A stretch of 60,788 nt of DNA, from the NCBI GenBank assembly GCA_021827685.1, contig JAKAUM010000012.1:1-60788 (forward strand), written 5' to 3'. Every line of letters starts with the position of its first letter. The stretch's first letter is position 1. The DNA is from a bacterium. Lineage in GTDB: Bacteria > Patescibacteriota > Minisyncoccia > UBA6257 > 2-01-FULL-56-20. Made by a program: the position numbers and the translations under genes. The notes under the pieces were generated by a model. That model saw only the letters and a program-made list of their open reading frames with translations. It was not told the DNA's origin and did no database searches. This document shows positions 998-14,545 of this stretch, piece by piece.

Positions 998-1063
998 AGT
1001 ATTGATTATACAGGCTCGGACCGTATGGCGTTGCTCAAATAAATTTCAACAGGCCCCCTTTGG

Positions 1064-1807: not shown

Positions 1808-1864
1808 TTTGATTCTGGTTTATTTTTTCGACTATACGGTGAAGCTTACCGCATCCCGACACAC

Positions 1865-1897
1865 TGTCAAATACTTTATTGACAATATATTTGACAA
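1865..1897 (-). promoter_or_regulatory. TTGACA-type repeat cluster upstream of the TrmB-like gene (putative promoter/operator)
   Basis: Inverted repeat tgtcaa(1865-1870)/ttgaca(1879-1884) plus a direct ttgacaa copy (1891-1897). It lies 58-90 nt upstream of the start at 1807. Confidence 0.3.
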
Positions 1898-1910
1898 CGG
1901 CGGTATGCGT

Positions 1911-1938
1911 AAAAAAAGGCCCCGATGCACTCGGGGCC
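1911..1938 (-). terminator. rho-independent terminator after 1963..2523
   Basis: 8-bp GC stem ggccccga(1918-1925)/tcggggcc(1931-1938). On the minus strand it is followed by T7 (plus-strand a7 at 1911-1917). Confidence 0.75.
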
Positions 1939-1962
1939 CGTAGCGAATGAAATCCTCCAATT

Positions 1963-2523
1963 CTACGCCGGAATGGGCCGGGCTTGCGACAGCGACTGGT
2001 CGATGAGCGATATAAAACACCAAGCATCCTCTTTCCGTTCTCGCAGATATTCGGGGTTCAGGAAGAACCGGGAAAACGTATCGCGGAAAACCAGGTAGGC
2101 CGCTCCCTCATATTGGGCTGCCATGCCGGTTGCGTAGCGTTTCGCTTCGTTGCGAATCCGCTCGGAGATACACCACATGAGCTTTGCGACGACGGCGAAA
2201 AACTCTTTCTGGAGATAGTAGTCGGGCGAAGCCATGATCGATTGCCGGTCGAAGCGAACCCAGAGGATTGCTTCCTTGTCGTCGTATTCCGGACAAACCA
2301 CCTGGATGTACTTCCACTCCGATCTCTTCCAATCCGGCTGTTTGTTCTGCTCATCGCAGAAAGATTTGAGTTGCGGGATGCGGTTGAACGGTTTGGCGGC
2401 AATCGTAACTTTGAGCTCGGGAATAATCGCCCGCCAGTGGGATGTAATCATCTCGTAAGACTTGGTGATGAGAGCCGCGACTTCTTGGTCGGCCTCGGGA
2501 TTCGTTACGGTCATAGTTGGCAT
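1963..2523 (-). CDS. hypothetical protein
   Basis: 186 aa with an ATG start, its own terminator and coding-like composition. I recognise no family. Confidence 0.55.
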   Translation of the reverse strand: MPTMTVTNPEADQEVAALITKSYEMITSHWRAIIPELKVTIAAKPFNRIPQLKSFCDEQNKQPDWKRSEWKYIQVVCPEYDDKEAILWVRFDRQSIMASPDYYLQKEFFAVVAKLMWCISERIRNEAKRYATGMAAQYEGAAYLVFRDTFSRFFLNPEYLRERKEDAWCFISLIDQSLSQARPIPA

Positions 2524-2670
2524 CAGTCACTCTCCTTGTTGAATTTTCAATGCCGGTTCGAGGCACCGTATTCACTATGGCCGGGTACGCGCCATCTCTC
2601 AATAACCTGATTGGCAAATATTGTGACAATATCAAGCTTCCTTACGGACGTATGGAAGCTTGATATTTCC

Positions 2671-2710
2671 CAAAAGAAAACCCTCGCAGCTGCCGGAGCA
2701 GATGCGAGGG
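2671..2710 (-). terminator. rho-independent terminator after 2743..3399
   Basis: Stem ccctcgca(2681-2688)/tgcgaggg(2703-2710). On the minus strand it is followed by TTTTCTTTTG. Confidence 0.75.
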
Positions 2711-2742
2711 TCAAGGGGTCAGACAAGAAGAGTGTCTGGTGG

Positions 2743-3399
2743 TCAACGAGAATTGCGAGAGAAGACCTGATCGCCACCGCGCCACGTGTTCGGGTACGTG
2801 ACGGAGCGCGCGCGCACGCGCCAGCCGCAGTCGTCAGCGGCCCAGTACACGCCCACGGCACGGAGCACGCCTTTGGCGTCACGAACATAGAAGATGTTCG
2901 CATAGCCGTTCGTAAGGAGCGCTCCCTTCTCGCCGTTCGGCTGGGCCGACATCAGGGCGAACACTTCGGCGAGCGTCGTTTCCGCTTTCTCTTCGCCGCC
3001 GAGTTCGGCGATGATCGGGCCGTCCACGGACGAGCGCGAGAGCGTGCCGTATTTCAGGGTTGATCCCTCGAACGGCTGCTCTGTCTTGTCCATGAACCAG
3101 CTCGTGAATTCATCCCAAATGTAGGCGATCTTCACGGCCGCGTTCCACTTGGTGTTCACGACAAACTTCTCGCGGGCGATGAAAACGCCCTTGGTTGGGG
3201 CGATCGCCACGGTGCCAATCGGTTTGAGTAATAGTATCCGGGCGATCGCCGCTCCGCCGCGGATGACCGCAAGAACGTCGGCGAAGAAGCCGCCCTTTGT
3301 CATTGCCTTCACCTCGGCATGCGTGGCTCCCGCGCGAGCCAAGGCAAACTCAACTTCCTGAATCTCTCCGGCACTCCCGAAGGTAAACTTGTCGCTCAT
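2743..3399 (-). CDS. hypothetical protein; C-terminal domain resembles the scaffold of the DGR target at 13735..14415
   Basis: 218 aa with an ATG start. The C-terminus NGYANIFYVRDAKGVLRAVGVYWAADDCGWRVRARSVTYPNTW parallels NGYTYFWGTIFRGANSSLYVGYLFRDGDRWRWDCRWLGYDW of the target. Shared pattern: NGY..F....G.L..VG..W...W. Confidence 0.6.
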   Translation of the reverse strand: MSDKFTFGSAGEIQEVEFALARAGATHAEVKAMTKGGFFADVLAVIRGGAAIARILLLKPIGTVAIAPTKGVFIAREKFVVNTKWNAAVKIAYIWDEFTSWFMDKTEQPFEGSTLKYGTLSRSSVDGPIIAELGGEEKAETTLAEVFALMSAQPNGEKGALLTNGYANIFYVRDAKGVLRAVGVYWAADDCGWRVRARSVTYPNTWRGGDQVFSRNSR

Positions 3400-3601
3400 G
3401 ACTGGTTCCTTTTCCGACTCGTTTCCCTTAGGAAACTTGTCTTCTGTAAAGTCATGGAATTGCTCCCATGCTGACCGTATCTTATGCCCTAATTCCTTAA
3501 TTCGTCAAGCGCGCGTAAATATTAATCTCGCGCGGCCTAAGGAAGCATTGGCCACGAACCATTTAACAGACAAAGGCGAAAGTTCCACCTGATTCGTTTC
3601 A

Positions 3602-3638
3602 AGAAAATGCGCCCGTATGGATTGCTCCAAACGGGCGC
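3602..3638 (-). terminator. rho-independent terminator after 3662..4123
   Basis: Stem gcgcccgt(3609-3616)/acgggcgc(3631-3638). On the minus strand it is followed by ATTTTCTTG. Confidence 0.65.
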
Positions 3639-3661
3639 TAGTTCGATGATCAACGCGGTGG

Positions 3662-4123
3662 TCATACCGCGCAGAGCAGCTTGGGCAATTCGACGCGGAG
3701 CTTGGCTATCGCATCCTCGTGCGAATCAAATGTAATAATTTTCACGACGGAGGGATTTCCCCGAAGCAGCCGCGATATCTTGCGAGCTTCGAGCTTTCTT
3801 TGCTCGCAAAGAATTATCACGGGGATGCCACTCCGGTTTGCCATCTCCACCTCGATGCCGCCACCCCAGGAAGGAGCTTCGGCGACAACGACGAGGAGCG
3901 ACGTGCGTTCGCATACCTGCTCACGCTCGGCCGCATCCACCTCGGGAGCGGTGTAGTGCCCGTGCTTTACTGGGTCATAATGTTCGTGCGGCACGAACGC
4001 CCGCACTCCGGTTTCGGCCTCAAACAGATCCGCGATTGCGACATAAAATGCCTTGATCGCGGCCTGTTCTTCTGGCGTCAGTTCGGTCAGTGGGCCGCAT
4101 ACATATGCGGAGTTTCCATTCAT
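3662..4123 (-). CDS. nucleoside 2-deoxyribosyltransferase-like (Rossmann-like) protein
   Basis: The ORF track extends to 4195. I place the start at the internal ATG at 4123 because a GGAGG lies 6 nt upstream. Motifs: N-terminal YVCGPL and C-terminal LLVVVAEAPSWGGGIEVEMANRSGIPVIIL, the PSxGxxxExG pattern of the NDT-like superfamily. Confidence 0.5.
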   Translation of the reverse strand: MNGNSAYVCGPLTELTPEEQAAIKAFYVAIADLFEAETGVRAFVPHEHYDPVKHGHYTAPEVDAAEREQVCERTSLLVVVAEAPSWGGGIEVEMANRSGIPVIILCEQRKLEARKISRLLRGNPSVVKIITFDSHEDAIAKLRVELPKLLCAV

Positions 4124-4445
4124 CCAACACCTCCGATTCATTGGCATTGATGCTGCTTGGCTGAATAGATTTAAACAGAAAGAGCATGTGGTCAAGGAAG
4201 CATAAATCGATCGCCTTTAACAACCACTATTCGATTATCGTGATGAGTCCCAGCAACAGCTATTTTAAAGACGCGATAGGGAGGATTACCGCTTCGCCCG
4301 CCGGAACACTCCGGTCTGTGGCGGACTTTGGGACGCTGTTTTGCGCCCGTATTCCATGCATCGATTTTTATCGCGCATGAATCGCGCAGAAAATCGCGCA
4401 GTGGTTCTGACCGGCTCGTAGGGCACACAGCGGACCTTAGGATAA

Positions 4446-4787
4446 CTATTTCACTTTTCGGGTCAACTGTAAGGTTTTCTTGATAAATTCGTTATGTTCT
4501 TCCGAATATTTCTCCCGGTCTTCTGGATATTTTTTCGCCGGCTCCTTCTTCGGGCTTGAGCATGCCTTCGTGTGCGCTGGATGAGCGTTCAGAGGTTTTC
4601 CATGTTCGCCATGAACGGGTCTTCCCGCTATCGGGAAAATAAAGCTCCCTGCCAGCGATGACTTGCGCCACCCATACACCTTTCGGAGTATGACGGTCCC
4701 CGATGCTCTGACGAGGGGCTTTATACCGGGAACAGAATATTGCGCCATGCCAGCGAGTTGCCTTGCTAGTTTAGGCGTCTTATTCAC
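4446..4787 (-). CDS. hypothetical basic protein
   Basis: 113 aa with a GTG start and a Lys-rich C-terminus. No recognisable domain, so the coding status is uncertain. Confidence 0.35.
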   Translation of the reverse strand: MNKTPKLARQLAGMAQYSVPGIKPLVRASGTVILRKVYGWRKSSLAGSFIFPIAGRPVHGEHGKPLNAHPAHTKACSSPKKEPAKKYPEDREKYSEEHNEFIKKTLQLTRKVK

Positions 4788-4810
4788 TTGTTATATTAAT
4801 TTTATGACGA

Positions 4811-4835
4811 GAAAAGCGCGCCTGTCTAGCGCGCT
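4811..4835 (-). terminator. rho-independent terminator closing the AAA/vWA/paralog gene string
   Basis: Stem agcgcgc(4815-4821)/gcgcgct(4829-4835). On the minus strand it is followed by TTTTCTCGTC. It lies 58 nt after the stop at 4893. Confidence 0.65.
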
Positions 4836-4892
4836 CTGATTTCGAATTCACATATTTTATATAAAAATTTTCGGAACCAAATTCCAAAGTAT

Positions 4893-5774
4893 CTATTCAC
4901 GAGAGAAAAGGACCTGAGGGCGGAACCCCAAGCCGGCGCTCCGCCCGTCGGGATCATCCCAGCGGACGATCGAGAGACCACCGTCCCCCGAGCTGCCACC
5001 ATCGAGGCGCCCCTGGCCCTTCATATAAGAATCTTCGAACCACTCCCATGTGTTTGCTCCGCCCCACTTGGGATAATATACGTTTCCCATGTAGTTCCAT
5101 TCAATCGCACGCGGAAGCCGCAGCGATTCGGGCGGGACATCCAACGCCTCCGCAATGGCTTTCTTCACCTCCGGCTTATTCAACTCGTCCCATGAAATGT
5201 TATAGCGGGAATCCTTAACTTTGAAATCGGTGATGACTTTCTTTTTTCTCAAATCTTCCAGCGTCTCGGCCAGTATATCATCGGCGTATTTTTGCTTGCC
5301 GTCCTGGTATTGCGGCTTCTCGCGGGTATCGACAAGAATCCAAGCGGCGGGAAGCTTGAGAGTTTCCTTTGGAAGATTGCCATTCTTCACTTCATCAAAA
5401 AATTCGATGCCCCATTTTTTATCCGGAGTGTATCGCGTGCCCGGCTTTTTCTTCCACCCGGGCAGATCGCGCCCTTCGTCAAGTTCTTCGTCCGGCAGGT
5501 AATGAAGTTCAAGCCCCATCTCTTTCCATTTCTCGTAGCGCTCGGGCGTAATTTCTTCCGGGAGTTCCGGAACCTCAATGTCGTATCCGAAAAAATTGCG
5601 GAGTGATTCTGCTTCCCGATCGAGGAGCTCGCGGAACTCCATCGTTTCCGCACGCATTCTACCGCGCTCTTTTTCCGCTTCGCCTAAAACCCTCTCCACC
5701 TTCTTTTGAACAGAGGTTTTATACTGGTCGGGGTTATATCCCTCGTATATTTTGTAACCGGGGAAGCGCTCCAT
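4893..5774 (-). CDS. variable-tail paralog P1: cytoplasmic protein with a C-terminal CLec/FGE-like putative DGR variable region
   Basis: 293 aa with an ATG start. It shares the N-terminus MERFPGYKIYE..YNPDQYKTSVQKKVE and the C-terminal frame PRAIEWNY.GN..P.WG....EWFEDS ... LGFRPQV.F.RE with P2 and P3. No signal peptide or TM segment. Confidence 0.85.
   Translation of the reverse strand: MERFPGYKIYEGYNPDQYKTSVQKKVERVLGEAEKERGRMRAETMEFRELLDREAESLRNFFGYDIEVPELPEEITPERYEKWKEMGLELHYLPDEELDEGRDLPGWKKKPGTRYTPDKKWGIEFFDEVKNGNLPKETLKLPAAWILVDTREKPQYQDGKQKYADDILAETLEDLRKKKVITDFKVKDSRYNISWDELNKPEVKKAIAEALDVPPESLRLPRAIEWNYMGNVYYPKWGGANTWEWFEDSYMKGQGRLDGGSSGDGGLSIVRWDDPDGRSAGLGFRPQVLFSRE
4932..5027 (-). 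repeat. hypervariable block (putative DGR VR) of P1
   Basis: Encodes YMKGQGRLDGGSSGDGGLSIVRWDDPDGRSAG. Aligns codon-for-codon with 5888..5983 and 9098..9193; see findings. Confidence 0.7.
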
Positions 5775-5848
5775 ATAAGTTATTTATTTTTGATTATCAT
5801 AAATTTTTCGAACCCGCCAAAGAAACAAAAGACCGATTACCAAAGCAC

Positions 5849-6700
5849 CTATTCACGAGAGAAAACAACCTGAGGGCGGAACCCCAAGTCGCCGAGCCGC
5901 GCGCCGGGATCACCCCAGCCGACGCTCGAGAGACCACCGATCCCCGAGTAGCCAACAGCGAGGCGCCTCTGGCCCTCCCCTAAAGAATCCTCAAACCACT
6001 CCCACGTATCGGTGTCGCCCCATGAAGGGTGGTAGGCGTTGCCGAGATAATTCCACTCGATGGCGCGGGGAAGGCGGAGATATTTTTCTGGAACATCAAG
6101 GGCTTCCGCGATCGCTTTCTTTACTTCCGGTTTGTGCAGTTCATCCCATGAAATTCTGAAACGGGAGCCTTCGACTTCAAAAGCTCCGATGACTTTTTTC
6201 TTTCTCAGTTCTTCAAGCGTTTTAGCAAGTACGTCGTCTTGGTACATTTGCTCGGCGTGTTGATATTTCGGTTTTTCTCTTGTATCCGCGAGGATCCACG
6301 CACCGGGTAAAGTCGCCGCATCGGCATCAACTTTTTTATCTTTAATATTCTCATAAAACAAATCGCGGGGTTTCTTCTTCCAGCCGGGCAGTTCGCGGTC
6401 TTTTTTCATTTCCTCCGCCGGCAAGTAATGGAGTTCGAAACCCATCTCTTTCCATTTCTCGTAGCGCTCCATCGTAATCTCTGCGGGGAGCGGCGGCACT
6501 TCAACGTCGTACCCGAAAAAGTTGCGGAGCGATTCTGCTTCGCGACCCCGAAGCTCGCGGAACTCCATGGTTTCGGGACCCATTCTGCCGCGCTCTTTTT
6601 GCGCTTCGCCTAAAACTCTCTCCACCTTCTTTTGGACGGAAGTCTTATACTGGTCGGGGTTATACTCCTCGTAGATTTTGTAACCGGGGAAGCGCTCCAT
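5849..6700 (-). CDS. variable-tail paralog P2
   Basis: 283 aa with an ATG start placed 2 nt after the vWA stop. Near-identical to P3 outside the tail; for example, a roughly 95-nt stretch around 6037-6133 appears identical to 9247-9343. Confidence 0.85.
   Translation of the reverse strand: MERFPGYKIYEEYNPDQYKTSVQKKVERVLGEAQKERGRMGPETMEFRELRGREAESLRNFFGYDVEVPPLPAEITMERYEKWKEMGFELHYLPAEEMKKDRELPGWKKKPRDLFYENIKDKKVDADAATLPGAWILADTREKPKYQHAEQMYQDDVLAKTLEELRKKKVIGAFEVEGSRFRISWDELHKPEVKKAIAEALDVPEKYLRLPRAIEWNYLGNAYHPSWGDTDTWEWFEDSLGEGQRRLAVGYSGIGGLSSVGWGDPGARLGDLGFRPQVVFSRE
5888..5983 (-). repeat. hypervariable block (putative DGR VR) of P2
   Basis: Encodes LGEGQRRLAVGYSGIGGLSSVGWGDPGARLGD. Confidence 0.7.
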
Positions 6701-6702
6701 GG

Positions 6703-8730
6703 TTATAGATCTCTTGTGTATTGAAGAATAACTTTTTGGACGGCTTGCGGCAATTTATTGATGTCCACGATGACTTCCGCATCCGGTTTATACGTTTCCT
6801 GAACAGCGGCCCCGGATTCCGTCATGCCCAAGCCTAAAATAATCACGCCCTTCTCGCGCAGCGCTTTGAGGTTCTTCTGGACGCGTTCGGCGTTTTCGCT
6901 GTCGCCGTCCGAGAGTACTACGATCACTTTGCGCCGTATCTTTTCCCTAAGCTGCCGCTCATCTTCCGGTGTCAGGGATTTTAACGCTTCTTCGAGCGAG
7001 AGATAATCCGGCGTTCCGCCACCCGCCTTGTGCATTTTCTTCCAAATCGCGATGCGGTCTTTTTCCGAAAGATCCGGCGAGAGTTTTTTGAGTTCCACAT
7101 CGCCGAAATCGCCGAACGCTCTCGTTTCGGTTCTCACGCCTAAACCCACAGGCATGCCGCTCTCGTATTCTGCTTCCTCGATTTCTTTCTGAAAGTCCGC
7201 GAGCGATTCCAAGAAAAGAAGTTTGCTTTTTCTATCCATTTCGAGCTTCCCGCCCTCGTTCATGGAGCCGGAAAGGTCATTGATCAGAGTCATATCAAGC
7301 GCGCCATATCCCTCTTCTTCCCGCTGCTTGCGCTCCACATCTCGAAATGCTCTCGGCTCACCGCCGCTTTTGGACTCGATATACGCTTCCGCGACCGTTC
7401 CACCCTCTATTTCCTCTCCTTCTCGCTGGAGCTGCGGGCGAACTTTCCAGCGCCGCTGTAATCTCTTCGTCACTACTTGCTTGAACACTTCGCGAAGTTC
7501 GGCAATGAGCGGGGCAATTTCTTTATATTCGTTTCGATATCCAATCACGTCTTCGGGGCTTACGTCGTGCTCCCTTGCCCATTGCTCAAGGATGCTCTGA
7601 TCGAGAGTGGGCACTCCGCCGCGCTCTTTCACAATCGTCTCGATCGCTTTCATGATTTTTTCTTCGTCTTTGGCCGACAAGGGCTCGGGGTGCGTCGCCT
7701 CATATGTTTTATATTGCTCCTTGAATCGCTTCTCGGCCTCGCGCCGGGCGCCGCCATCGCCGCGCTTCTCTTTTTTCGTGTCTCCTCCGCCTTCTTCTCC
7801 CTTTCCATTGCCGCCCTCGGCCTCTTTTTTCTTTTTAAACTTCTCCCACCACTTTTTGTCTTTTTTTTCGCCGCCCTGCTCGCCCTGCCCACCCTGCCCT
7901 CCTTCCTGTTCGCGACTTTCGTTCGACTGGCCTTGACCCTGATCCCCTTTGCCTTTTTGTTTCTGCGTTTCGCGCTCCATGTCTTTGCGGTAAAGTTCCA
8001 TATAAACCGGCTCGACAACCTGGCGCATCAACTTGAACCGGTCGCGCGGCTCAATTGTGGGCGTCGTTACAAGATCTAAAATATCTGTTCTGTCGTCGCC
8101 GAAATTGCGAAGCTTATCGAGGGCTTCCTGTGCTTCGGGACCCACCGTAACTTGTTCATCCGGAACCATCATCTGGCGGATAAAGCCGTACACGAACTGA
8201 ACGTGGGCAGACAATTCCTGTTCTTGGCCAGTTTGCGGATCCTTGAGGCGCCGGTAATCGGTCGCCGGAAACATTTTCTCTTTATATAAAGTGCGGCGCG
8301 TTTCCTCCAGAAATGGAAGTTCAGCGACAATGCGCCGATTCCCAAGCACGTCTTCAAAGATATTGTGGAGAATATGGAGCTGCGGTTTTTGCTGGCTATA
8401 TCGTTTCGCTTCCTTAAGTACAAATTCCGGATCTCTCAAAAGTTCCCCGTAGTGAGCCATAAGCTCGTGCGTCGTCGCAAAGAGCGTTTCCTTAAGATCG
8501 TAACCGCGCTCAATGAAAAAATTGGGATCGTAAACAAGTCGCCGGTTCTCGAAGTCGAACGCCCAACCGTTGCTCCCCCTTTCGAGCGTAATGTCCCCGC
8601 GCATCCCGTATGCGCCGAGGATCTCGCCTTCCTTGTCGAAAAACGCTTCAACTTCGGACGGCTGCGACTCCTTCTTTTCAATGGGATTCTCGTCTCCCTC
8701 GGGCGGTTTTTCAGGAGAGAATTTAGTCAA
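6703..8730 (-). CDS. vWA-domain protein with an N-terminal HExxH (metallopeptidase-like) region and a central K/E/G-rich low-complexity linker
   Basis: 675 aa. HELMAH motif near residue 90. C-terminal vWA domain with the MIDAS motif DLSGSM. The track start at 8730 is a TTG overlapping the stop of the RT remnant, so the true start is uncertain. Confidence 0.8.
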   Translation of the reverse strand: MTKFSPEKPPEGDENPIEKKESQPSEVEAFFDKEGEILGAYGMRGDITLERGSNGWAFDFENRRLVYDPNFFIERGYDLKETLFATTHELMAHYGELLRDPEFVLKEAKRYSQQKPQLHILHNIFEDVLGNRRIVAELPFLEETRRTLYKEKMFPATDYRRLKDPQTGQEQELSAHVQFVYGFIRQMMVPDEQVTVGPEAQEALDKLRNFGDDRTDILDLVTTPTIEPRDRFKLMRQVVEPVYMELYRKDMERETQKQKGKGDQGQGQSNESREQEGGQGGQGEQGGEKKDKKWWEKFKKKKEAEGGNGKGEEGGGDTKKEKRGDGGARREAEKRFKEQYKTYEATHPEPLSAKDEEKIMKAIETIVKERGGVPTLDQSILEQWAREHDVSPEDVIGYRNEYKEIAPLIAELREVFKQVVTKRLQRRWKVRPQLQREGEEIEGGTVAEAYIESKSGGEPRAFRDVERKQREEEGYGALDMTLINDLSGSMNEGGKLEMDRKSKLLFLESLADFQKEIEEAEYESGMPVGLGVRTETRAFGDFGDVELKKLSPDLSEKDRIAIWKKMHKAGGGTPDYLSLEEALKSLTPEDERQLREKIRRKVIVVLSDGDSENAERVQKNLKALREKGVIILGLGMTESGAAVQETYKPDAEVIVDINKLPQAVQKVILQYTRDL

Positions 8731-9053
8731 GTTATTGCGTTTATTATACCGCTTATAGGCCGAAAAATCAAATGATTTTCTTTACCATTTCCCATCGCAC
8801 GGTGCGCGATTTTAAGATCGGCGTTGAGAAATTCGCCGACTTTCCCTATATAGCTCGACAGGAGTTCTCGATCTCTGTCTAAAATTACGAAGTCGTCGCA
8901 GTAGCGCATGTAATACTTCGCGCGCAGAGTCATTTTTATGAATTGATCGGGTTCGTTCAGATAGATATTCGCGAAGAGCTGGCTCGTGAGGTTGCCGAGC
9001 GGCAGTCCCTGTATGTCAACATCCCTTTTGTGAGACAAGAGCCAAAATCCCAA
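8727..9053 (-). pseudogene. internal remnant of a DGR-type reverse transcriptase (motifs 4-5 only)
   Basis: Translation QGLPLGNLTSQLFANIYLNEPDQFIKMTLRAKYYMRYCDDFVILDRDRELL. It carries the LGxxxSQ motif-4 signature of DGR RTs and a YxDD catalytic box (YCDD). N-terminal fingers motifs 1-3 and the thumb are absent. The apparent start is a TTG 5 nt after the P3 stop. Confidence 0.75.
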
Positions 9054-9058
9054 AGCAC

Positions 9059-9910
9059 CTATTCACGAGGGAAAACAACCTGAGGGCGGAACCCCAAGGC
9101 GTCGTTCCGTCCGACGGGATTACCCCAGTAGACGTTCGAGAGACCACCGCTCCCCGAGTGGCCACCATCAAGGCGCCTCCGGCCATTCATGTAAGAATCC
9201 TCGAACCATTCCAATGAATTCGTCTCGCCCCATGAAGGGTGGTGGGCGTTGCCGAGATAATTCCACTCGATGGCGCGGGGAAGGCGGAGATATTTTTCTG
9301 GAACATCAAGGGCTTCCGCGATCGCTTTCTTTACTTCCGGTTCGTGCAGTTCATCCCATGCGATCCCGAAGCGGGAGCATTTGACTTCAAAAGCTCCGAT
9401 GGCTTTTTTCTTTCTCAATTCTTCAAGCGTTTTAGCAAGTACGTCCTCTTTATACGCCTGCTTGCCGTCTTCGTAATGCGGTTTGTCCCTGCCGTCTACA
9501 AGTATCCATGCCGCAGGCAGCGTTGCTGCATCAGCGGCGACTTCTTTTGCTTCCAATATTTCATAAAACCAGTCCCGCGGCTTCTTCTTCCAGCCGGGCA
9601 GTTCGCGGTCTTTTTTCATTTCTTCCGCCGGCAGGTAGTGGAGTTCGAGCCCCATTTCTTTCCATTTCTCGTAGCGTTCTGCCGTAATTTCTTCCGGGAG
9701 CTCCGGAATCTCAATGTCGTATCCGAAAAAGTTGCGGAGTGATTCTGCTTCCCGATCTATCAGCTCCCGGAATTCCAATAATTCCGGATTGATGAGCCCT
9801 TTTTCTTTCTGCGCTTCCCCAAGCGCCTTTTCTACCTTCTTTTGAACAGAGGTCTTGTATTGGTCGGGGTTGTACTCTTCGTATATTTTGTAACCGGGGA
9901 AGCGCTCCAT
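9059..9910 (-). CDS. variable-tail paralog P3
   Basis: 283 aa with an ATG start 12 nt after the AAA ATPase stop. Same family as P1 and P2. Confidence 0.85.
   Translation of the reverse strand: MERFPGYKIYEEYNPDQYKTSVQKKVEKALGEAQKEKGLINPELLEFRELIDREAESLRNFFGYDIEIPELPEEITAERYEKWKEMGLELHYLPAEEMKKDRELPGWKKKPRDWFYEILEAKEVAADAATLPAAWILVDGRDKPHYEDGKQAYKEDVLAKTLEELRKKKAIGAFEVKCSRFGIAWDELHEPEVKKAIAEALDVPEKYLRLPRAIEWNYLGNAHHPSWGETNSLEWFEDSYMNGRRRLDGGHSGSGGLSNVYWGNPVGRNDALGFRPQVVFPRE
9098..9193 (-). repeat. hypervariable block (putative DGR VR) of P3
   Basis: Encodes YMNGRRRLDGGHSGSGGLSNVYWGNPVGRNDA. This copy is the richest in AAC/AAT codons. Confidence 0.7.
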
Positions 9911-9922
9911 AACATAATGGGA

Positions 9923-11599
9923 CTATTCTTTGCCCTGCCAGGCGCGCAGCGTCTTCGCCGCAAGTCCGGGTACTTTGAAGTCTTCGGGCTTAGTGTCCTT
10001 GAAGAATTTATTGGCCATAAAGACGCGGATCATATTTTCCCTGTCTTTGCTCGCCCGGCCGCTGATTTCGGCTTTATGGAAAAACTCGCGAAGCACGACG
10101 TCCCCGAGCTGCTCTTTAAATCCGCCGGCTTTCCACGCTTTCATGATTTCGATCTGGTCCTTCAGGGTAACCACAAGCTCCTTGAATGCCAGGCGGTCGC
10201 TTTTCGCCAAACTTTCTTCCGCGCCTTCGCGCACGGAAAGCGTGAAGTCTTCCTGTATCTTGCGGCAGGCGGCGGCAAATCGCTTCAGTTCATCCACCTT
10301 CCCGGCCGCCCCTGTTTCGCTCCACTGGATATTGCCGTGCCGGTCGGCGAGAACGGCGGTCAAAATTCGGAGCGTTTCCGGAGCGATATATTGCCCTTCT
10401 TTATTTTTCTTCCCGAGATCCAAATAGTGAATTTCGCGGGCTCCCGCGCCTCCGATGAAGCGGCGGAGCGTCGCTACATCGAGTTCATAGCGCTGCTTGT
10501 ACCGCTCCGATTTCAAGTTAGCCGTTGCCATAATCGGTGCGCGGATCGGGATTTCCTCGCCGGTTACGGGATGCTTCCAAACATCGCCGACCCGCTTTTG
10601 CAAAAGGTCGTGCAAAATTCCCGCGAACTCGTGGGGCATAAGATTCACTTCATCTAAAATCACGGGGCGCCCTTCTTTTTGCGCTTTCACGAATTCGGAA
10701 TAGTCAAAAACCGTCTCACCGCCTTTGAGTCCTCGGGTGCCCAAGATCTGCGATTCTTTGATCTGTTCCTGTATGGAAATGAGCGCCGGCGCTTTTCTCA
10801 AATATCTCTCCGAAATATATTTCGCAAGCTGCGATTTCCCCGAGCCGGTTTCGCCCTGGAAAAGAACCGGGGCGCCCTGAAGCAGATCCGGCAGTATGGC
10901 GCGGATGAGTTCCGTGCGCGATTCCGTTTCGGCAAAACTGTATTGCTCCAAATCGCGCTGCATCTTGCGGATGCCGCGCCGCTCGAGCATATCGATTGTG
11001 TCCGGATCAAGCTCGAAGTTTTTTATCGTTTCCTGAAGTTCGCCCTTGCGGGTTGCGAGGTCGGCCATTTTCTTCCGCTCGATGGGCCCCGGCGCCCGCC
11101 CCACTTTCTCGTAAACCATCTGAAGCTTTTTCTCTGCCGAGGTTATCGCGTCAAGTTCTTTTTCGGCATGTTCATACTGCAAAGATTTCGTAAGCGTTTG
11201 TTTCTTTTTCTCGAATTGCTCCTTATAAGTTCGTAAAACTTCCGGATTGCTCGCCAACTCTTTGATGCGGGCATCGTATTCCGTAAGCGTCGTTTCTTGA
11301 AATTCCGCGAGTTCCGGATCGAGTGAAAGCGCCTCGAGATGCGCCGCGACTTCGTTTTCTCCTTTGGCCTTCAAATCTGCGAGCTCCGTTTTGCTTTTCA
11401 CACCCCATGCTTCGTTCACGTGCTTCGCGACTTCGGCGCGGGAAGCCGAAAGCTCCGCGAGCTCATTTACGCGAGATTCCAATTCCTCGCGTGAAAGTGG
11501 TTTCTCTTTTTTAGATGGCTTTTCCACGCTCTCCCGCTCAAGAATCACTTCGGGGGTGGTTTTTACTTCGGGAATATGCGGCAACTTTTCTGGAGACAT
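9923..11599 (-). CDS. MoxR/AAA_5-like P-loop ATPase with a long coiled-coil N-terminal region
   Basis: Walker A is GETGSGKS and Walker B is VILDEVN, followed by an ATANL sensor-like segment. The track ORF starts at a TTG (11662); the first ATG is at 11599 (MSPEKLPH...). Confidence 0.8.
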   Translation of the reverse strand: MSPEKLPHIPEVKTTPEVILERESVEKPSKKEKPLSREELESRVNELAELSASRAEVAKHVNEAWGVKSKTELADLKAKGENEVAAHLEALSLDPELAEFQETTLTEYDARIKELASNPEVLRTYKEQFEKKKQTLTKSLQYEHAEKELDAITSAEKKLQMVYEKVGRAPGPIERKKMADLATRKGELQETIKNFELDPDTIDMLERRGIRKMQRDLEQYSFAETESRTELIRAILPDLLQGAPVLFQGETGSGKSQLAKYISERYLRKAPALISIQEQIKESQILGTRGLKGGETVFDYSEFVKAQKEGRPVILDEVNLMPHEFAGILHDLLQKRVGDVWKHPVTGEEIPIRAPIMATANLKSERYKQRYELDVATLRRFIGGAGAREIHYLDLGKKNKEGQYIAPETLRILTAVLADRHGNIQWSETGAAGKVDELKRFAAACRKIQEDFTLSVREGAEESLAKSDRLAFKELVVTLKDQIEIMKAWKAGGFKEQLGDVVLREFFHKAEISGRASKDRENMIRVFMANKFFKDTKPEDFKVPGLAAKTLRAWQGKE

Positions 11600-11753
11600 A
11601 TTATTGAAATTATAATAGCAAAACAAGCATTTCTCAAAATTCCGTCGAGCTATGTATTCCAATAATACTACAGATGCTCTAATAAGTCAACCTTTTCGCA
11701 CTGGTTCCCCACCAGGGCGGCCTTATCCGACTTATAGCTCCCTCGCGCCCTTC

Positions 11754-12047
11754 TTATCGCATCCCTTTGAATACGATGCCAGTTGTTCTTTGCAAAAGTT
11801 CCAATGTCGCCCGCACGGATGGGTTGCTGGTGTGCCGTAATTGGACTCTATCGCCGTAGGTTTTCCCGAGCGGCGTCAGAAATTCGTCGCCCCATGAAGG
11901 TGAAAAGGTCAAAACGTCCTCGAAGTCGATCTCGAGATTCTCATCCTCTTTGATGTCGCGCAATGTCGGCTGGAATGCCGCGAACGATTCGCGTCCGGCT
12001 TGGCGGGAAATGAGGGTCGTCCCGAATTTTTTGAGTTCGATGGTCAT
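11754..12047 (-). CDS. STAS-like small protein (DUF4325-like)
   Basis: 97 aa with an ATG start. The pattern ISRQAGRE...LEIDFEDVLTFSPSWGDEFL matches the DUF4325/STAS-like architecture. The gene starts 5 nt after the GHKL gene stop. Confidence 0.55.
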   Translation of the reverse strand: MTIELKKFGTTLISRQAGRESFAAFQPTLRDIKEDENLEIDFEDVLTFSPSWGDEFLTPLGKTYGDRVQLRHTSNPSVRATLELLQRTTGIVFKGMR

Positions 12048-12052
12048 GGATT

Positions 12053-12775
12053 TTAATATGATATGAGGACAAGGCAGCCGCGTAGGTTCTCTTTGCTTTT
12101 CGCCACAATGAAATCGGTATCCCTGCCTTTCATGGTAAGTGCTGCGTCGCCGCTTTGGAAGGAGATGTTAATGTTATTTTCAGAAACGACCTCCTTCACG
12201 TACTTCAGTCCGTTGCCCCGCCCCTCGGGAGCGCGGCCGGAGATGACTTCCGTAAACGCGACCTTCAGGGCATCTTCGTAGTTATTCAGCGCCGGTCTCA
12301 CCCGCTTCAATGTTTCGAGGACGCCGATACCTCTATCGGCCAACACAATCTGCTTTTTCACAAGATCGTACGCGAAGAATATCCCCGGCGTATCCGGCCA
12401 CAATCCGAGATTATGGTCGAATGAGTTGTTCCCTATTTCCCCCGCGACTGACACGAGCAGCGAGAAGAGATCAGGTACCGTGCCGCCGCGAATCATGTCG
12501 TCCTGCATCCTGATGAGCCGCGCCTGGAAAACGGCGCTCGTCTGACAATAGAAACCCTGCGGGAATTCCGCATTGCCCGCGATCCAATCGTGGGCAAGCC
12601 TGAAAAGGTTCTGCGAGAAAATCTCGACATCCTTTCTCCGGTAATAACGGTCTCCTCCTTCCCGTTTCCGGATGGCAGGAAAACGTCCGCTCTCATCCCA
12701 ACGGCGCAACGTCATTATGGAGACGCCCATCAGCTCGGCGGCTTCTCCTATTGGAACCAGATCTTTGTCGTCCAT
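12053..12775 (-). CDS. MerR-type HTH fused to a GHKL (HATPase_c-like) ATPase/kinase domain
   Basis: MerR HTH: IGEAAELMGVSIMTLRRWDESGRFPAIRKREGGDRYYRRKDV. GHKL boxes: N-box EIGNNSFDHN, G1 DRGIG, G2 GRGNGLKY. The track start at 12826 is a TTG; the first ATG is at 12775. Confidence 0.7.
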   Translation of the reverse strand: MDDKDLVPIGEAAELMGVSIMTLRRWDESGRFPAIRKREGGDRYYRRKDVEIFSQNLFRLAHDWIAGNAEFPQGFYCQTSAVFQARLIRMQDDMIRGGTVPDLFSLLVSVAGEIGNNSFDHNLGLWPDTPGIFFAYDLVKKQIVLADRGIGVLETLKRVRPALNNYEDALKVAFTEVISGRAPEGRGNGLKYVKEVVSENNINISFQSGDAALTMKGRDTDFIVAKSKENLRGCLVLISY

Positions 12776-12816
12776 AGCTTTGTTAGCTTCAAGAGCTATT
12801 TTATCATACTTTTTAT

Positions 12817-12884
12817 ATCTATACAAACTTCCCTATATCTATACATCTACCATAAATCTCTATATTTTCCTCTTAATCTATACA
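12817..12884 (-). promoter_or_regulatory. periodic direct repeats upstream of the MerR-GHKL gene (putative operator array)
   Basis: Plus-strand atctataca at 12817, 12837 and 12876, plus a degenerate atctctata at 12856. This gives a period of about 20 nt. The minus-strand motif is TGTATAGAT. Confidence 0.4.
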
Positions 12885-13271
12885 TTGCTTTCCTCCAAAA
12901 TCAGGGCGCCACCCCCCCCTACCCCTACCTACCCTAAATATCCCCATTTTCTCTGATTTCCACTGCCTTTCCGGCGTCTGGGGGCGGACATGTCCGGTTT
13001 TGCGCGAGCCGATCGCCCACTGGCATGCATACGCGGTACACGCTCGGCGTGAAAATCGACAGCCTGCTCGTCGAAACCATCGCACAGATATAAGAAGCGA
13101 ATCGTGCGAGTAAGGGCACGAAGCTGCCGCATCTTGAGCGCGCCGCTCATTATCTCGACCTCGCGAAACTCTTCCTCGAGATGCTCTAGGAGATCAAAGC
13201 GCTGGATAGCGGGAAATATATCTCCCTTTCCGAAAAACTCTTTGAAGCGGGCAGGTAGGCCAGCGGTTGGG

Positions 13272-13385
13272 CGCGGCCGGCTCGTTGTCGTTCCAGTCGT
13301 TGTCGAGCCAGTTATAGTTCCAGTTCCACCTGTTGCCGTTCCAGTACGGGTACTCGACATACAGGTTACCGTTCGCGTTGCGGAA
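13272..13385 (-). repeat. DGR template repeat (TR), 114 nt
   Basis: The minus-strand sequence would read FRNANGNLYVEYPYWNGNRWNWNYNWLDNDWNDNEPAA and contains 11 AAC codons. It is 85/114 identical to 13750..13863. Similarity ends at the ttccgc (5') and ccggccgcg (3') boundaries. Confidence 0.8.
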
Positions 13386-13639
13386 TCGTGCGCCGTGCCA
13401 TCCGCGCCACCATCCGTTGATTACTCTCGGGATTGAATCGTGTTCGGGATGCCCCCAGCACCGCGCACCAAGTATCTTCGTTTTTATTTCGGTTGAAAGA
13501 ACGGCGCTGGCAGAAAGCGTACCCGCTGCCATTCCGCGTTCAGTGATACCGGAATGCGGCCGCCGAAACCGCAGCCTCGGACTTGTTTTGAGCCTTATTC
13601 CGAAATCGTTTTTCACGTCTTATTTTTGTAGATAATAGA

Positions 13640-13680
13640 TAAAAGAAGGCCCGTGCAGAACCGAAGTTCGCGCACGGGCC
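13640..13680 (-). terminator. hairpin/rho-independent terminator downstream of the VR
   Basis: Stem ggcccgtgc(13648-13656)/gcacgggcc(13672-13680). On the minus strand it is followed by TTCTTTTAT. It lies about 70 nt 3' of the VR end. Confidence 0.7.
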
Positions 13681-13734
13681 GAAGAGCAAAGGGGCAGAGG
13701 ATCAGAAAGGTCCAGCTGCCCCATATCCAAAGGA

Positions 13735-14415
13735 CTAACTTGCGAGCGACGCGGCCGGGCTCTGAACGCGCCAGTCGTAGCCGAGCCAGCGGCAGTCCCA
13801 GCGCCACCTGTCGCCGTCCCGGAACAGGTACCCGACATACAGGCTGCTGTTCGCGCCGCGGAAGATGGTTCCCCAGAAATAGGTGTAACCATTCTTCCAC
13901 TCATTAGGAATGAGCTTCGGGTTGGCGAGCAGGGCATCCATGATGCAGGCGTTCAGCACCTGCACGTCCCTCAGCTCCTTGCAGAGCTTGTGGCCCTGGA
14001 TGTAGTTGCCATCCCGCTGCTTTTTTGAGAGGTAACGGACGACTTCCTTGCCGTTCGCATAGAGCTTGCCGTCGTCACGCTTTACGAGGGTGATCGCGCC
14101 CATCGGGCGATGCTCAGTTCCGTCGCCCGTCAGGTAGAGGCCGGATGGGATTTTGGGATTTGCGTCGCAGTCCACGATGATCGACATCGGAAGCGGGGCG
14201 GGCTGCGGTTTCCCGATAACGGGAACCACTGCGGCTGGCGTCTCGAACTTACGTCCTTCGACCACCTGCTGCAGTTCATCCATCACCCAGTCGTATTCGA
14301 GCGTGCCTTCGTTGATCCGGCGCTTCAATTCGTCGGTGCGACGAGTCATCTTTCCGAGCTGCTCATCGTCCATCTTGGTTCCGTCGAGGACAGCGCTTGC
14401 CGTCGTATTCGTCAT
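13735..14415 (-). CDS. DGR target protein (cytoplasmic, no signal peptide) with the VR at its C-terminus
   Basis: 226 aa with an ATG start preceded by AAGGAG. The C-terminal 38 codons form the VR. Confidence 0.85.
   Translation of the reverse strand: MTNTTASAVLDGTKMDDEQLGKMTRRTDELKRRINEGTLEYDWVMDELQQVVEGRKFETPAAVVPVIGKPQPAPLPMSIIVDCDANPKIPSGLYLTGDGTEHRPMGAITLVKRDDGKLYANGKEVVRYLSKKQRDGNYIQGHKLCKELRDVQVLNACIMDALLANPKLIPNEWKNGYTYFWGTIFRGANSSLYVGYLFRDGDRWRWDCRWLGYDWRVQSPAASLAS
13750..13863 (-). repeat. DGR variable repeat (VR), 114 nt
   Basis: Encodes FRGANSSLYVGYLFRDGDRWRWDCRWLGYDWRVQSPAA. There are 29 mismatches to the TR, and 20 of them fall at TR adenines. Confidence 0.8.
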
Positions 14416-14545
14416 GACAGTTTCTCCTTTTTCTGCCGCATAGTTGCAGCTTTGAACGTACCATCACATATGCGCTCAAAGCTGCAACGAAGCGGAAATC
14501 CCTTGGAATATATGGCTTTTCAAAGAGCATTGAGTTACGATTTAT

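What the first reader, a model, noticed from the sequence alone, without database searches (positions are those of the whole stretch)
4893..11662. Candidate new system: DGR-type variable-tail proteins embedded in a MoxR-like AAA+ / vWA-HExxH operon
One co-directional, tightly spaced minus-strand gene string reads: AAA_5/MoxR-like ATPase, 12 nt, P3, RT remnant, vWA protein with an N-terminal HELMAH motif and a MIDAS DLSGSM, 2 nt, P2, 74 nt, P1, terminator.

None of the three P proteins has a signal peptide or TM segment. If they are diversified binders, they act inside the cell, unlike the classical surface-displayed DGR targets. MoxR-vWA pairs are known chaperone/activation modules. They have also been proposed as cores of NTP-dependent conflict systems with variable sensor partners.

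Here the partner appears to be a family of hypervariable lectin-like tails present in three copies. My inference is a sensor (variable tail), switch (AAA+) and effector/scaffold (vWA-metallopeptidase-like) system whose specificity was, or still is, tuned by mutagenic retrohoming. I cannot tell from the sequence whether this architecture has been described before.
Basis: inference. Interest (0 to 1): 0.85.

Follow-up and report, generated by a model that had tools for sequence, protein, structure and literature searches.

The report
Decayed retroelement cassette with ATPase partners
This is a broken copy of a gene cassette common in ultra-small (CPR) bacteria, in which a mutagenic retroelement varies the binding tips of small intracellular lectin-fold proteins that sit beside a NorQ/NorD-like ATPase and adaptor pair; similar pairings are already published for other phyla.

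Summary
The gene string is real and is not a chance arrangement. On the minus strand it reads AAA_5 ATPase, P3, RT fragment, vWA protein, P2, P1.

Relatives in at least 15 CPR/Patescibacteria genome loci carry the same AAA_5 and vWA genes. Where enough flank is held, most also carry an intact DGR (RT, Avd, TR) and 2-3 small variable proteins.

In the closest intact relative (L001), all 30 TR/VR mismatches fall on template adenines. In the window, the three P tails differ at 20 of 100 aligned columns, and 16 of these are adenines in that template. Tail dN/dS between paralogs is about 4.2, against about 0.1 for the rest of the gene.

The window's DGR is dead in cis. It has no TR and no Avd, and only 68 residues of RT homology remain.

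P is an N-terminal helical leader followed by an FGE/TvpA-type C-type-lectin fold, with no signal peptide or TM segment. The ATPase is closest to Midasin and NorQ, and the vWA domain to NorD and the Midasin MIDAS domain. The "HExxH" is actually HExxxH (HELMAH). It is invariant, but the domain is unclassified.

DGR-diversified lectin domains in MoxR-vWA conflict systems are already published (Kaur 2020; Doré 2024), and AAA-CLec fusions in CPR are reported (Paul 2017, as cited by Doré 2024). Verdict: a new variant of a known kind. The sensor/remodeller mechanism is inferred, not shown.

The parts
9923..11599 (-). AAA_5 (MoxR/NorQ/Midasin-class) ATPase, 558 aa. The mechanical ORF runs to 11662.
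   Evidence: Pfam AAA_5 E 1e-16. Best PDB sequence matches are Midasin AAA (2e-19) and NorQ (2e-7). Walker A GETGSGKS at 249 and Walker B VILDE at 313. 90% aa identity to the L001 ortholog, dN/dS 0.033.
11609..11637 (-). Promoter-like site (TTGAGA-17-TATAAT, 11 of 12) just upstream of the AAA start.
   Evidence: Consensus scan. This is a pattern match only.
9059..9910 (-). P3, 283 aa: N-terminal helical leader plus FGE/TvpA-type C-type-lectin fold. Former DGR target.
   Evidence: AF2 pLDDT 90. Foldseek top hits are CarF, TvpA 2y3c, FGE, PvdO, EgtB and Mtd. No Pfam hit.
9080..9179 (-). Variable region (VR) of P3.
   Evidence: Aligns to the L001 TR 12063-12162. It carries a hairpin-forming 3' end, CTTGGGGTTCCGCCCTCAGG.
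8727..9053 (-). Reverse-transcriptase remnant. The ORF is 108 aa; RT homology covers only 8808-9011, equal to RT residues 151-218 (motifs 4-5).
   Evidence: tblastn 81% identity to the L001 RT. Pfam RVT_1 E 3e-4, below cutoff. Both deletion boundaries were mapped against L001.
6703..8730 (-). vWA protein, 675 aa: unclassified N-terminal domain with invariant HExxxH (H88, E89, H93) and E126/D127, a low-complexity K/E/G linker, and a C-terminal vWA domain with a complete MIDAS.
   Evidence: Pfam VWA/VWA_CoxE. Invariant columns in 27 homologs. Foldseek top hits are NorD VWA in NorQD complexes and the MDN1/Rea1 MIDAS domain. dN/dS 0.040 against L001.
5849..6700 (-). P2, 283 aa, paralog of P3 (78% aa identity).
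5870..5969 (-). Variable region of P2.
4893..5774 (-). P1, 293 aa, paralog with a 10-aa insert. Orthologous to Pb of L001 (84% aa identity).
4914..5013 (-). Variable region of P1.

Best explanation
The locus is a degenerate copy of a cassette conserved in CPR/Patescibacteria.

In intact copies, a DGR (RT, Avd, TR) rewrites the C-terminal roughly 100 nt of two or three small paralogous cytoplasmic proteins. Each of these has a conserved N-terminal leader followed by an FGE/TvpA-type C-type-lectin fold. Their genes are interleaved with an AAA_5 ATPase (NorQ/Midasin class) and a partner protein. The partner carries a C-terminal MIDAS-containing vWA domain (NorD/Midasin-MIDAS-like) and an N-terminal HExxxH domain.

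In this window, two deletions removed the TR, Avd, one P gene and most of the RT. The three tails are therefore frozen products of past mutagenic retrohoming, while AAA, vWA and P1-3 remain intact under purifying selection.

The inferred mechanism has three steps:
1. The variable lectin tip binds an intracellular ligand, most plausibly a component of an invader.
2. The conserved, partly disordered acidic N-terminal leader (M..F..YKIYEEY.PD.YKT..QKKV) docks the protein on the vWA adaptor (MIDAS) and/or the AAA ring.
3. ATP-driven pulling, as in NorQ-NorD, CbbQ-CbbO or Midasin, remodels or releases the bound complex. The HExxxH domain may act as a catalytic output.

Shown here: the anatomy, the DGR origin of the tails, the conserved linkage, the fusion and the fold classes. 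Inferred: the physical docking, the identity of the ligand, any peptidase activity and a defence role.
For: DGR origin of the tails:
- The intact relative L001 reads AAA, Pa, Pb, TR, Avd, RT, vWA, Pc, with 3 VRs.
- In L001, 30 of 66 TR-adenine sites are changed and 0 of 234 non-A sites.
- The window VRs vary at 20 of 100 columns. Sixteen of these are adenines in the L001 TR (p = 2e-10), and nearly all are at codon positions 1-2.
- Between window paralogs, the VR has pS 0.056 and pN 0.209 (dN/dS about 4.2). The rest of the gene has pS 0.49-0.72 and dN/dS 0.08-0.15. The tails were therefore homogenised from one template after the paralogs had diverged.

Conserved linkage:
- The neighbourhood table covers L001-L031. 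vWA-bearing loci with enough flank carry the AAA and 2-3 P or Q targets, and most carry an intact RT, Avd and TR. L020 lacks the AAA, L026 keeps only an RT remnant, and the divergent L031 shows none of these.
- TRs were located in L010, L011 and L014.
- The AAA_5::P fusion in L004 links the ATPase directly to the variable protein.
- P and Q targets share 58-71% identity over the first 32 aa but only 23-30% beyond residue 100. Residues 1-13 are predicted disordered.
- A distant DGR-less relative (L037) keeps the pattern vWA, small paralog, AAA_5, small paralog, again with hypervariable C-termini.

Functional state of the core genes:
- AAA and vWA have dN/dS 0.03-0.04.
- The MIDAS residues and the HExxxH motif are invariant.
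- Fold and sequence matches are to NorQ/NorD and Midasin and to TvpA/FGE.
Against: - No experiment or complex model links P physically to AAA or vWA.
- Two P-family loci (L005, L008) have no AAA or vWA nearby, and one P homolog carries a Tat-type signal. The fold is therefore not restricted to this machine or to the cytoplasm.
- PADLOC gives no meaningful hit.
- The HExxxH domain has no recognisable peptidase relative.
- Foldseek E-values for P are weak (4e-3 to 0.1, TM about 0.4), although the hit list is uniformly the FGE/CLec fold.
- A trans-acting TR and RT elsewhere in this genome cannot be excluded.
Confidence: 0.62

Rival explanations
1. The variable proteins are host-attachment or surface-binding factors of an episymbiotic CPR cell. 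The AAA_5-vWA pair would be their assembly or export chaperone rather than a signalling or defence machine.
For: PMC10907252 ascribes a host-interaction role to some CPR/DPANN DGRs, citing Paul 2017. One P homolog (P0021) has a Tat-like signal, so the fold can work outside the cell. MoxR-class/vWA pairs are generally maturation chaperones (established knowledge of NorQD and CbbQO; structural matches).
Against: The AAA/vWA-linked P and Q proteins have no signal peptide or TM segment. No secretion gene is part of the conserved cassette. PMC8144416 also notes that CPR clade-2 targets lack TM or other recognisable domains.
Confidence: 0.2
2. AAA_5 and vWA are accessory factors of the retroelement itself, for example by remodelling the RT-Avd-RNA complex or the target DNA. 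On this view they do not act on the variable proteins.
For: They co-occur with RT, Avd and TR in most intact loci.
Against: - Both genes are kept intact under strong purifying selection here and in L026 after the DGR was lost.
- In L004 the AAA_5 is fused to a P domain, not to the RT or Avd.
- A distant relative keeps vWA, AAA_5 and small paralogs with no RT or Avd within 8 kb.
Confidence: 0.08
3. The three P tails are still being diversified, by a matching TR and RT located elsewhere in the same genome (trans-acting DGR).
For: Kaur et al. report TRs 'elsewhere in the genome' for some systems. Synonymous divergence among the window's VRs is very low, pS 0.056. The 3' VR hairpin and IMH-like end are intact in all three copies.
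Against: No TR-like fourth copy exists in the 60.8-kb window or in 10 kb beyond its left end (L033; judged from gene calls only). None of the 120 closest RT relatives lies on a 342,864-bp contig. Three of the 20 variable columns are changes at non-adenine positions, whereas L001 has none; this difference is not significant.
Confidence: 0.12

Closest known systems
DGR-associated MoxR-vWA (VMAP/iSTAND) ternary conflict systems of cyanobacteria and gammaproteobacteria (Kaur et al. 2020, PMC7159879; Doré et al. 2024, PMC10907252)
   Same: A MoxR-class AAA+ ATPase and a vWA protein sit in one operon with hypervariable FGS/CLec domains diversified by a DGR. Many of those targets are predicted cytoplasmic. 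Some loci have CLec-only targets or targets with unknown N-terminal extensions next to the ATPase.
   Different: - Here the lectin proteins are small stand-alone paralogs (2-3 per locus), not C-terminal fusions to the vWA protein.
- The vWA domain is C-terminal and is preceded by an HExxxH domain.
- No VMAP, iSTAND, FtsH, peptidase, TIR or EAD gene belongs to the conserved cassette.
- The hosts are CPR bacteria, not multicellular lineages. [quoted passage not shown]
[quoted passage not shown] 2017, known to me only through its citation in PMC10907252)
   Same: Same phylum-level host group and the same AAA-CLec functional link. L004 carries exactly such a fusion, an 887-aa AAA_5::P protein.
   Different: In the window and most relatives the ATPase and the lectin proteins are separate genes, and a vWA-HExxxH partner is always present. 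I could not read the 2017 paper, so I cannot say whether it mentions the vWA partner.
NorQ-NorD, CbbQ-CbbO and Midasin (Rea1/MDN1) AAA_5 plus MIDAS remodelling machines
   Same: The best sequence and structure matches of the ATPase (Midasin AAA, NorQ) and of the vWA domain (NorD VWA in NorQD complexes, MDN1/Rea1 MIDAS). The vWA domain is at the C-terminus of a long adaptor protein, and the MIDAS is complete.
   Different: No NOR, Rubisco or ribosome-assembly client is nearby. The adjacent genes are hypervariable lectin proteins and a retroelement. The N-terminal HExxxH domain has no counterpart that I could detect.
Treponema denticola TvpA and other FGE-type CLec DGR variable proteins
   Same: The same fold class, with the VR at the extreme C-terminus ending in a GFR motif.
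   Different: TvpA is a surface lipoprotein. P has no export signal, has a conserved N-terminal leader instead, and matches no Pfam FGE-sulfatase model.

Membership tests
Diversity-generating retroelement (complete, active) | Intact DGR-type reverse transcriptase | tested here: not met
   Only 68 residues (RT 151-218, motifs 4-5) remain at 8808-9011. No other RT is in the window. Relatives L001, L010, L011, L014 and L017-L029 have intact RTs.
Diversity-generating retroelement (complete, active) | TR/VR pair with mismatches confined to template adenines | tested here: not met
   No TR for the P tails exists in the window. The signature is met in L001 (30/66 A sites, 0/234 non-A). The window's VR differences coincide with the adenines of that TR (16 of 20 columns, p = 2e-10). 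This is a past DGR product, not a present one.
Diversity-generating retroelement (complete, active) | VR at the C-terminus of a CLec-fold target protein | tested here: met
   AF2 model with pLDDT 90. Foldseek hits are all FGE/TvpA/Mtd-type folds, at weak E-values.
Diversity-generating retroelement (complete, active) | Avd accessory gene | tested here: not met
   Absent from the P cassette. The only Avd-like sequence in the window (13034-13285, + strand) belongs to a second DGR remnant and has 3 in-frame stops.
MoxR-vWA ternary conflict systems (VMAP / iSTAND / FtsH types, Kaur 2020) | MoxR-class AAA+ ATPase adjacent to a vWA protein | tested here: met
   AAA_5 with intact Walker motifs, and a vWA domain with a complete MIDAS. 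The match is to AAA_5/NorQ/Midasin rather than to Pfam AAA_3, and Kaur's own profiles are not available.
MoxR-vWA ternary conflict systems (VMAP / iSTAND / FtsH types, Kaur 2020) | Third core component: VMAP, inactive STAND or FtsH protein | tested here: not met
   The conserved cassette holds only AAA, vWA, P/Q, RT and Avd. P is a lectin fold. No VMAP profile was available, so this is an absence of any extra conserved gene rather than a failed profile search.
MoxR-vWA ternary conflict systems (VMAP / iSTAND / FtsH types, Kaur 2020) | Variable effector domains fused C-terminally to the vWA domain | tested here: not met
   The vWA domain is the C-terminal domain (residues about 476-675), and the variable modules are separate genes.
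MoxR-vWA ternary conflict systems (VMAP / iSTAND / FtsH types, Kaur 2020) | Enrichment in multicellular or aggregating bacteria | tested here: not met
   All relatives found are Patescibacteria/CPR: Paceibacteria, Yanofskybacteria, Nomurabacteria and contigs labelled Saccharibacteria.
NorQ/NorD - CbbQ/CbbO - Midasin type AAA_5 + MIDAS remodeller | AAA_5 ATPase and a partner with a C-terminal MIDAS vWA domain, structurally like NorQ/NorD | tested here: met
   PDB sequence hits to Midasin (2e-19) and NorQ (2e-7). Foldseek hits to NorD VWA (7e-6) and the MDN1 MIDAS (6e-5).
NorQ/NorD - CbbQ/CbbO - Midasin type AAA_5 + MIDAS remodeller | Physical AAA ring-vWA complex acting on a defined client | not testable with these tools
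   No multimer prediction or experiment was available. That P/Q are the clients is inferred from gene order, the L004 fusion and the shared N-terminal leader.
Zincin-type (HExxH) metallopeptidase | HExxH zinc-binding motif in a recognisable peptidase fold | tested here: not met
   The motif is HELMAH, which is HExxxH. There is no Pfam hit in 27 homologs or 10 distant relatives and no PDB sequence hit with a profile. H88, E89, H93, E126 and D127 are invariant, so a metal site is plausible. The resemblance to the HExxGH motif of the M49 DPP-III family is from memory only, not tested.

The most novel reading that the evidence does not exclude
CPR bacteria, which are unicellular and have ultra-small genomes, may carry a widespread and probably mobile intracellular 'anticipatory receptor' system. 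The cassette is often flanked by a serine recombinase.

In this reading, families of small lectin-fold proteins have binding tips that are rewritten by a DGR, or in distant relatives made hypervariable by other means. They dock through a conserved N-terminal leader onto a dedicated NorQ/NorD-like AAA_5-vWA machine that carries a novel HExxxH domain.

This would extend DGR-tuned MoxR-vWA immunity beyond multicellular bacteria. It would also give a function to the many CPR DGR targets that currently have none.
Probability: 0.3. Interest if true: 0.78.

Novelty: new variant of a known kind. Interest (0 to 1): 0.55.

Why it matters
CPR bacteria are among the lineages richest in DGRs, yet their targets are described as lacking TM or other recognisable domains, with localisation unresolved (PMC8144416).

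The evidence here shows that one large group of these targets has three properties:
- It is a minimal TvpA/FGE-type lectin fold with a conserved docking-like leader.
- It is always encoded with a NorQ/NorD-like ATPase-adaptor pair.
- It stays under selection after the retroelement decays.

This gives a concrete, testable model for what these proteins do. It also links the CPR DGRs to the MoxR-vWA conflict systems so far tied to multicellular bacteria.

For this particular window the practical message is more modest. The element is a fossil, and its three tails are fixed variants.

Tried and rejected
- **Family libraries.** Pfam, NCBIfam and PADLOC gave nothing for P1-3 or the vWA N-terminal domain.
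- **PDB sequence searches.** A profile search with the P alignment gave only spurious TPR hits. A profile search with the HExxxH domain gave no hits.
- **Fold search of the full vWA model.** It was dominated by the vWA domain and says nothing about the N-terminal domain.
- **Search for a fourth, TR-like copy of the tails.** A sensitive blastn of the window found none.
- **Search for another RT or Avd in the window.** Only the RT fragment and one Avd pseudogene, which belongs to a different DGR, were found.
- **Viral contigs.** No vWA relative was found. One P locus (L032) has three tandem P genes and a 1002-aa AAA_5 protein, so a phage origin is not supported.
- **Possible paralogy of ORF 2743..3399 with the second DGR target (ORF 13735..14415).** No similarity was found, and the idea was rejected.
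- **Paul et al. 2017.** The paper could not be read.
- **Papers on DGRs with AAA_5 or vWA in CPR.** The search found nothing beyond Kaur 2020 and Doré 2024.
- **Chance juxtaposition.** Rejected, because the same gene order recurs in many of the related loci compared.

Full report
**1. Observation**

The minus strand of window 4893-11662 carries six co-directional ORFs:
- an AAA protein (ORF 9923..11662)
- P3 (9059..9910)
- a 108-aa ORF (8727..9053)
- a 675-aa protein (6703..8730)
- P2 (5849..6700)
- P1 (4893..5774)

Pfam gives the following:
- AAA_5 for the first protein (E 1e-16)
- VWA/VWA_CoxE at about threshold for the 675-aa protein
- a sub-threshold RVT_1 match (E 3e-4) for the 108-aa ORF
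- nothing for P1-3

The ATPase most likely starts at 11599 (M22 of the ORF). This is where the 90%-identical ortholog in L001 starts, and a TTGAGA-17-TATAAT match lies at 11637-11609.

Walker A (GETGSGKS), Walker B (VILDE) and the MIDAS DxSxS (DLSGS) are present.

P1-3, AAA and vWA have no hydrophobic 19-residue window above a Kyte-Doolittle mean of 1.03, and their N-termini are polar.

- HELMAH is HExxxH, one residue longer than the zincin HExxH.
- The scan found no intrinsic terminator after P1. It finds a hairpin (CTTGGGGTTCCGCCCTCAGG) inside the 3' end of every VR, the position where DGR targets are known to carry a structured element (that expectation is from general DGR knowledge).
- P has no separate N-terminal domain (section 4).

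**2. The tails are DGR products, but the DGR here is dead**

The three P genes are 68-78% identical in protein sequence. Their differences in the last 100 nt cluster at codon positions 1 and 2. No fourth, non-coding copy of this segment exists in the window.

A relative shows the intact state. This is L001, a 331-kb metagenomic contig that also appears as L018 ('uncultured bacterium' MAG). Its AAA is 90% and its vWA 84% identical to those of the window. Its gene order is:
- AAA_5 (8319-9995)
- Pa
- Pb
- TR (12057-12167)
- Avd (opposite strand)
- RT (293 aa)
- vWA
- Pc

It has three VRs. Across them, 30 of 66 TR-adenine positions differ and 0 of 234 non-adenine positions differ.

The window's three VRs differ from each other at 20 of 100 aligned columns. 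Sixteen of these are adenines in the L001 TR (Fisher p = 2e-10).

Selection statistics between window paralogs agree:

| Region | pS | pN | dN/dS |
|---|---|---|---|
| VR | 0.056 | 0.209 | about 4.2 |
| Rest of the gene | 0.49-0.72 | 0.108-0.156 | 0.08-0.15 |

The tails were therefore overwritten from one common template long after the paralogs diverged, and differ almost only by non-synonymous, adenine-site changes.

A DNA comparison with L001 maps two deletions in the window:
- L001 10877-13105, covering Pb, the TR, Avd and the N-terminal half of the RT.
- L001 13313-13503, covering the RT C-terminus.

What remains is RT residues 151-218 (81% identity). The window holds no other RT. None of the 120 closest RT relatives lies on a 342,864-bp contig, the length of the window's own contig.

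Diversification in cis is therefore extinct. A trans-acting copy elsewhere in the genome cannot be excluded.

**3. The linkage to AAA_5 and vWA is conserved**

The P family is small: 43 clusters, all Patescibacteria where named.

The vWA protein family is larger. At least 90 clusters have 39% or more identity. The N-terminal domain alone finds 433 representative clusters, almost all 600-780 aa.

A tblastn table over 31 loci shows two layouts of one cassette:
- Type P: AAA, P, P, TR, Avd(-), RT, vWA, P.
- Type Q: RT(-), Avd, TR(-), [Q], AAA, Q, vWA, Q. This layout is often flanked by a large serine recombinase.

TRs were located in L010, L011 and L014. The hosts are Paceibacteria, Yanofskybacteria, Nomurabacteria and contigs labelled Saccharibacteria.

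Q proteins (267-275 aa) carry a different VR domain, ending in LGVCPSR. They nevertheless share 58-71% identity with P over the first 32 residues, against 23-30% after residue 100.

Other loci add to the picture:
- L004 encodes an 887-aa AAA_5::P fusion.
- L026 is another locus with only an RT remnant but intact AAA, Q, vWA, Q.
- L002 and L003 are decaying copies, and L003 is riddled with IS elements.
- A distant relative of the HExxxH-vWA protein (P0214; L035-L038) reads vWA, 211-aa protein, AAA_5, 211-aa protein, with two more paralogs nearby and no RT or Avd within 8 kb. The four paralogs are conserved over about 165 residues. Their C-termini are hypervariable and vary in length, which is not a DGR signature.

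There are exceptions. L005 and L008 have P homologs without AAA or vWA nearby, and the L005 protein has a Tat-like signal.

AAA and vWA evolve under strong purifying selection, with dN/dS 0.033 and 0.040 against L001 at near-saturated dS.

**4. What the proteins are**

*P.* The AF2 model of P3 has mean pLDDT 90. Residues 1-13 and 34-40 are disordered, helices span 15-62, and a compact mixed fold follows from about residue 65. Foldseek against the PDB returns only FGE-type C-type-lectin folds: CarF, T. denticola TvpA (2y3c), FGE, PvdO, EgtB and Mtd. E-values run from 4e-3 to about 0.1 and TM-scores are about 0.4. The scores are weak, but the hit list is uniform.

*AAA.* The closest solved sequences are Midasin AAA domains (2e-19) and NorQ (2e-7).

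*vWA.* The model is only moderate (pLDDT 68), but the N-terminal domain (about residues 70-260) and the vWA domain are reasonably confident. Its best structural matches are NorD VWA in NorQD complexes (7e-6) and the MDN1/Rea1 MIDAS domain. In 27 homologs the following are invariant:
- H88, E89 and H93
- E126 and D127
- D485, S487 and S489
- T573 and D608, which I take to complete the MIDAS

The N-terminal domain has no Pfam, NCBIfam or PDB sequence relative. Its identity as a peptidase is therefore untested. The HExxxH spacing recalls the HExxGH of M49 peptidases, but that is a recollection, not a result.

**5. Most likely mechanism**

*Shown:*
- The cassette anatomy.
- The DGR origin of the tails.
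- The conserved co-occurrence and one fusion.
- The NorQ/NorD/Midasin-like nature of the ATPase-adaptor pair.
- The lectin fold of P.
- The shared N-terminal leader across otherwise unrelated target types.
- Retention under selection after DGR loss.

*Inferred:* The variable tip binds an intracellular ligand. The conserved, acidic and partly disordered leader docks the protein to the vWA MIDAS and/or the AAA ring, in the way that Midasin's MIDAS binds its clients and CbbO binds Rubisco (established knowledge of those systems). ATP hydrolysis then remodels the complex, with the HExxxH domain as a possible output.

A conflict or defence role is suggested by three things: the hypervariability, the frequent serine recombinase and IS context, and the analogy with published systems. 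It is not demonstrated.

*Rivals:*
- A host-attachment or export role.
- A role of AAA and vWA in retrohoming itself. This is disfavoured by retention after DGR loss, by the AAA::P fusion and by the DGR-less relative.
- Continuing diversification in trans.

**6. Comparison with what is known**

Kaur et al. 2020 (PMC7159879) describe MoxR-vWA ternary systems whose FGS domains are diversified by DGRs. These occur mainly in cyanobacteria and gammaproteobacteria, with the FGS domain usually fused to the vWA component.

Doré et al. 2024 (PMC10907252) extend this and propose the CLec domains as antigen sensors. Their examples include loci with a MoxR ATPase next to targets that lack a vWA domain. 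They state, citing Paul 2017, that the commonest CPR target architecture is CLec fused to an AAA ATPase. [quoted passage not shown]

Roux et al. 2021 (PMC8144416) note that CPR clade-2 targets have no recognisable TM or other domain, and that it is unresolved whether they are non-membrane proteins.

The present cassette differs in four ways:
- Its lectin proteins are stand-alone and have a common leader.
- Its vWA protein has the domain order HExxxH, linker, vWA.
- It has no VMAP, iSTAND or FtsH component.
- It is found in CPR hosts.

It works like these systems, but it fails the membership tests for the VMAP-type ternary family. I could not read Paul 2017, so part of this may already be documented there.

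**7. Verdict**

The general idea is already published, and the CPR version appears to be a distinct, conserved variant. This particular copy is a fossil with frozen tails.

Noticed in passing
window 13034-13863 (TR 13272-13385 minus strand; VR 13750-13863 in ORF 13735..14415; Avd pseudogene 13034-13285 plus strand): This is a second, unrelated DGR remnant. The TR/VR pair is 75% identical, with 20 of 32 TR adenines changed against 9 of 82 non-adenines. The Avd-like sequence has 3 in-frame stops, and there is no RT. The target is a 226-aa protein with no family match.
   Followed up: partly
window 11754-12826, minus strand: A MerR-type HTH protein (257 aa, with a long unassigned C-terminal part) and a STAS-like DUF4325 protein (97 aa) sit between the two DGR remnants. 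The HTH region alone matches PADLOC mad1.
   Followed up: no
window 1-14500 versus 14500-54000: The left 14.5 kb, which holds both DGR remnants and the AAA/vWA cassette, is 52% GC. The following ribosomal-protein and housekeeping region is 62% GC. The region from 54 kb to the end of the window is 55% GC overall.
   Followed up: partly
L037 6563-13517 (also L035, L036, L038): A distant relative of the HExxxH-vWA protein sits with an AAA_5 gene and four 211-216-aa paralogs. Their first roughly 165 residues are conserved. Their last roughly 45 residues are hypervariable and vary in length, and end in a conserved LFVSDK with a conserved 3' flank. No RT, Avd or TR is present. This is hypervariability by some non-DGR route.
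   Followed up: partly
L004 6608-13353: An 887-aa AAA_5::P fusion protein is followed by two more P genes, interleaved with two nucleotidyltransferase/HEPN-type toxin-antitoxin pairs, and then by an Avd gene at the contig end.
   Followed up: partly
L005 7068-8051 (protein P0021): This P-family member has a Tat-type signal (SRRTFLKGAVAGAAMVVG). It lies next to a ribosomal-protein cluster, with no AAA_5, vWA or RT nearby. The same lectin module therefore seems to be used outside the cell in some lineages.
   Followed up: no
L007 1909-7817 and L008 7745-9991: Proteins of 281-382 aa, otherwise unrelated to P, share only the first roughly 25-50 residues with the P proteins of the same locus. This suggests a locus-specific common leader on different cargo domains.
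   Followed up: no
L032 6105-12929 (IMG/VR contig): Three tandem P paralogs are followed by a 334-aa protein and a 1002-aa AAA_5 protein, on a contig classed as viral. No vWA or RT was detected within 8 kb.
   Followed up: partly
L001, L010, L014-L016, L019, L027, L029 (flanks of the cassette): A large serine recombinase (Resolvase, Recombinase and Zn-ribbon domains) lies beside the cassette in many genomes. IS elements and DNA methyltransferases are frequent neighbours. The cassette may move as a unit.
   Followed up: partly
window 43665-50432, minus strand: A 2255-aa ORF, by far the largest in the window. It was not examined.
   Followed up: no
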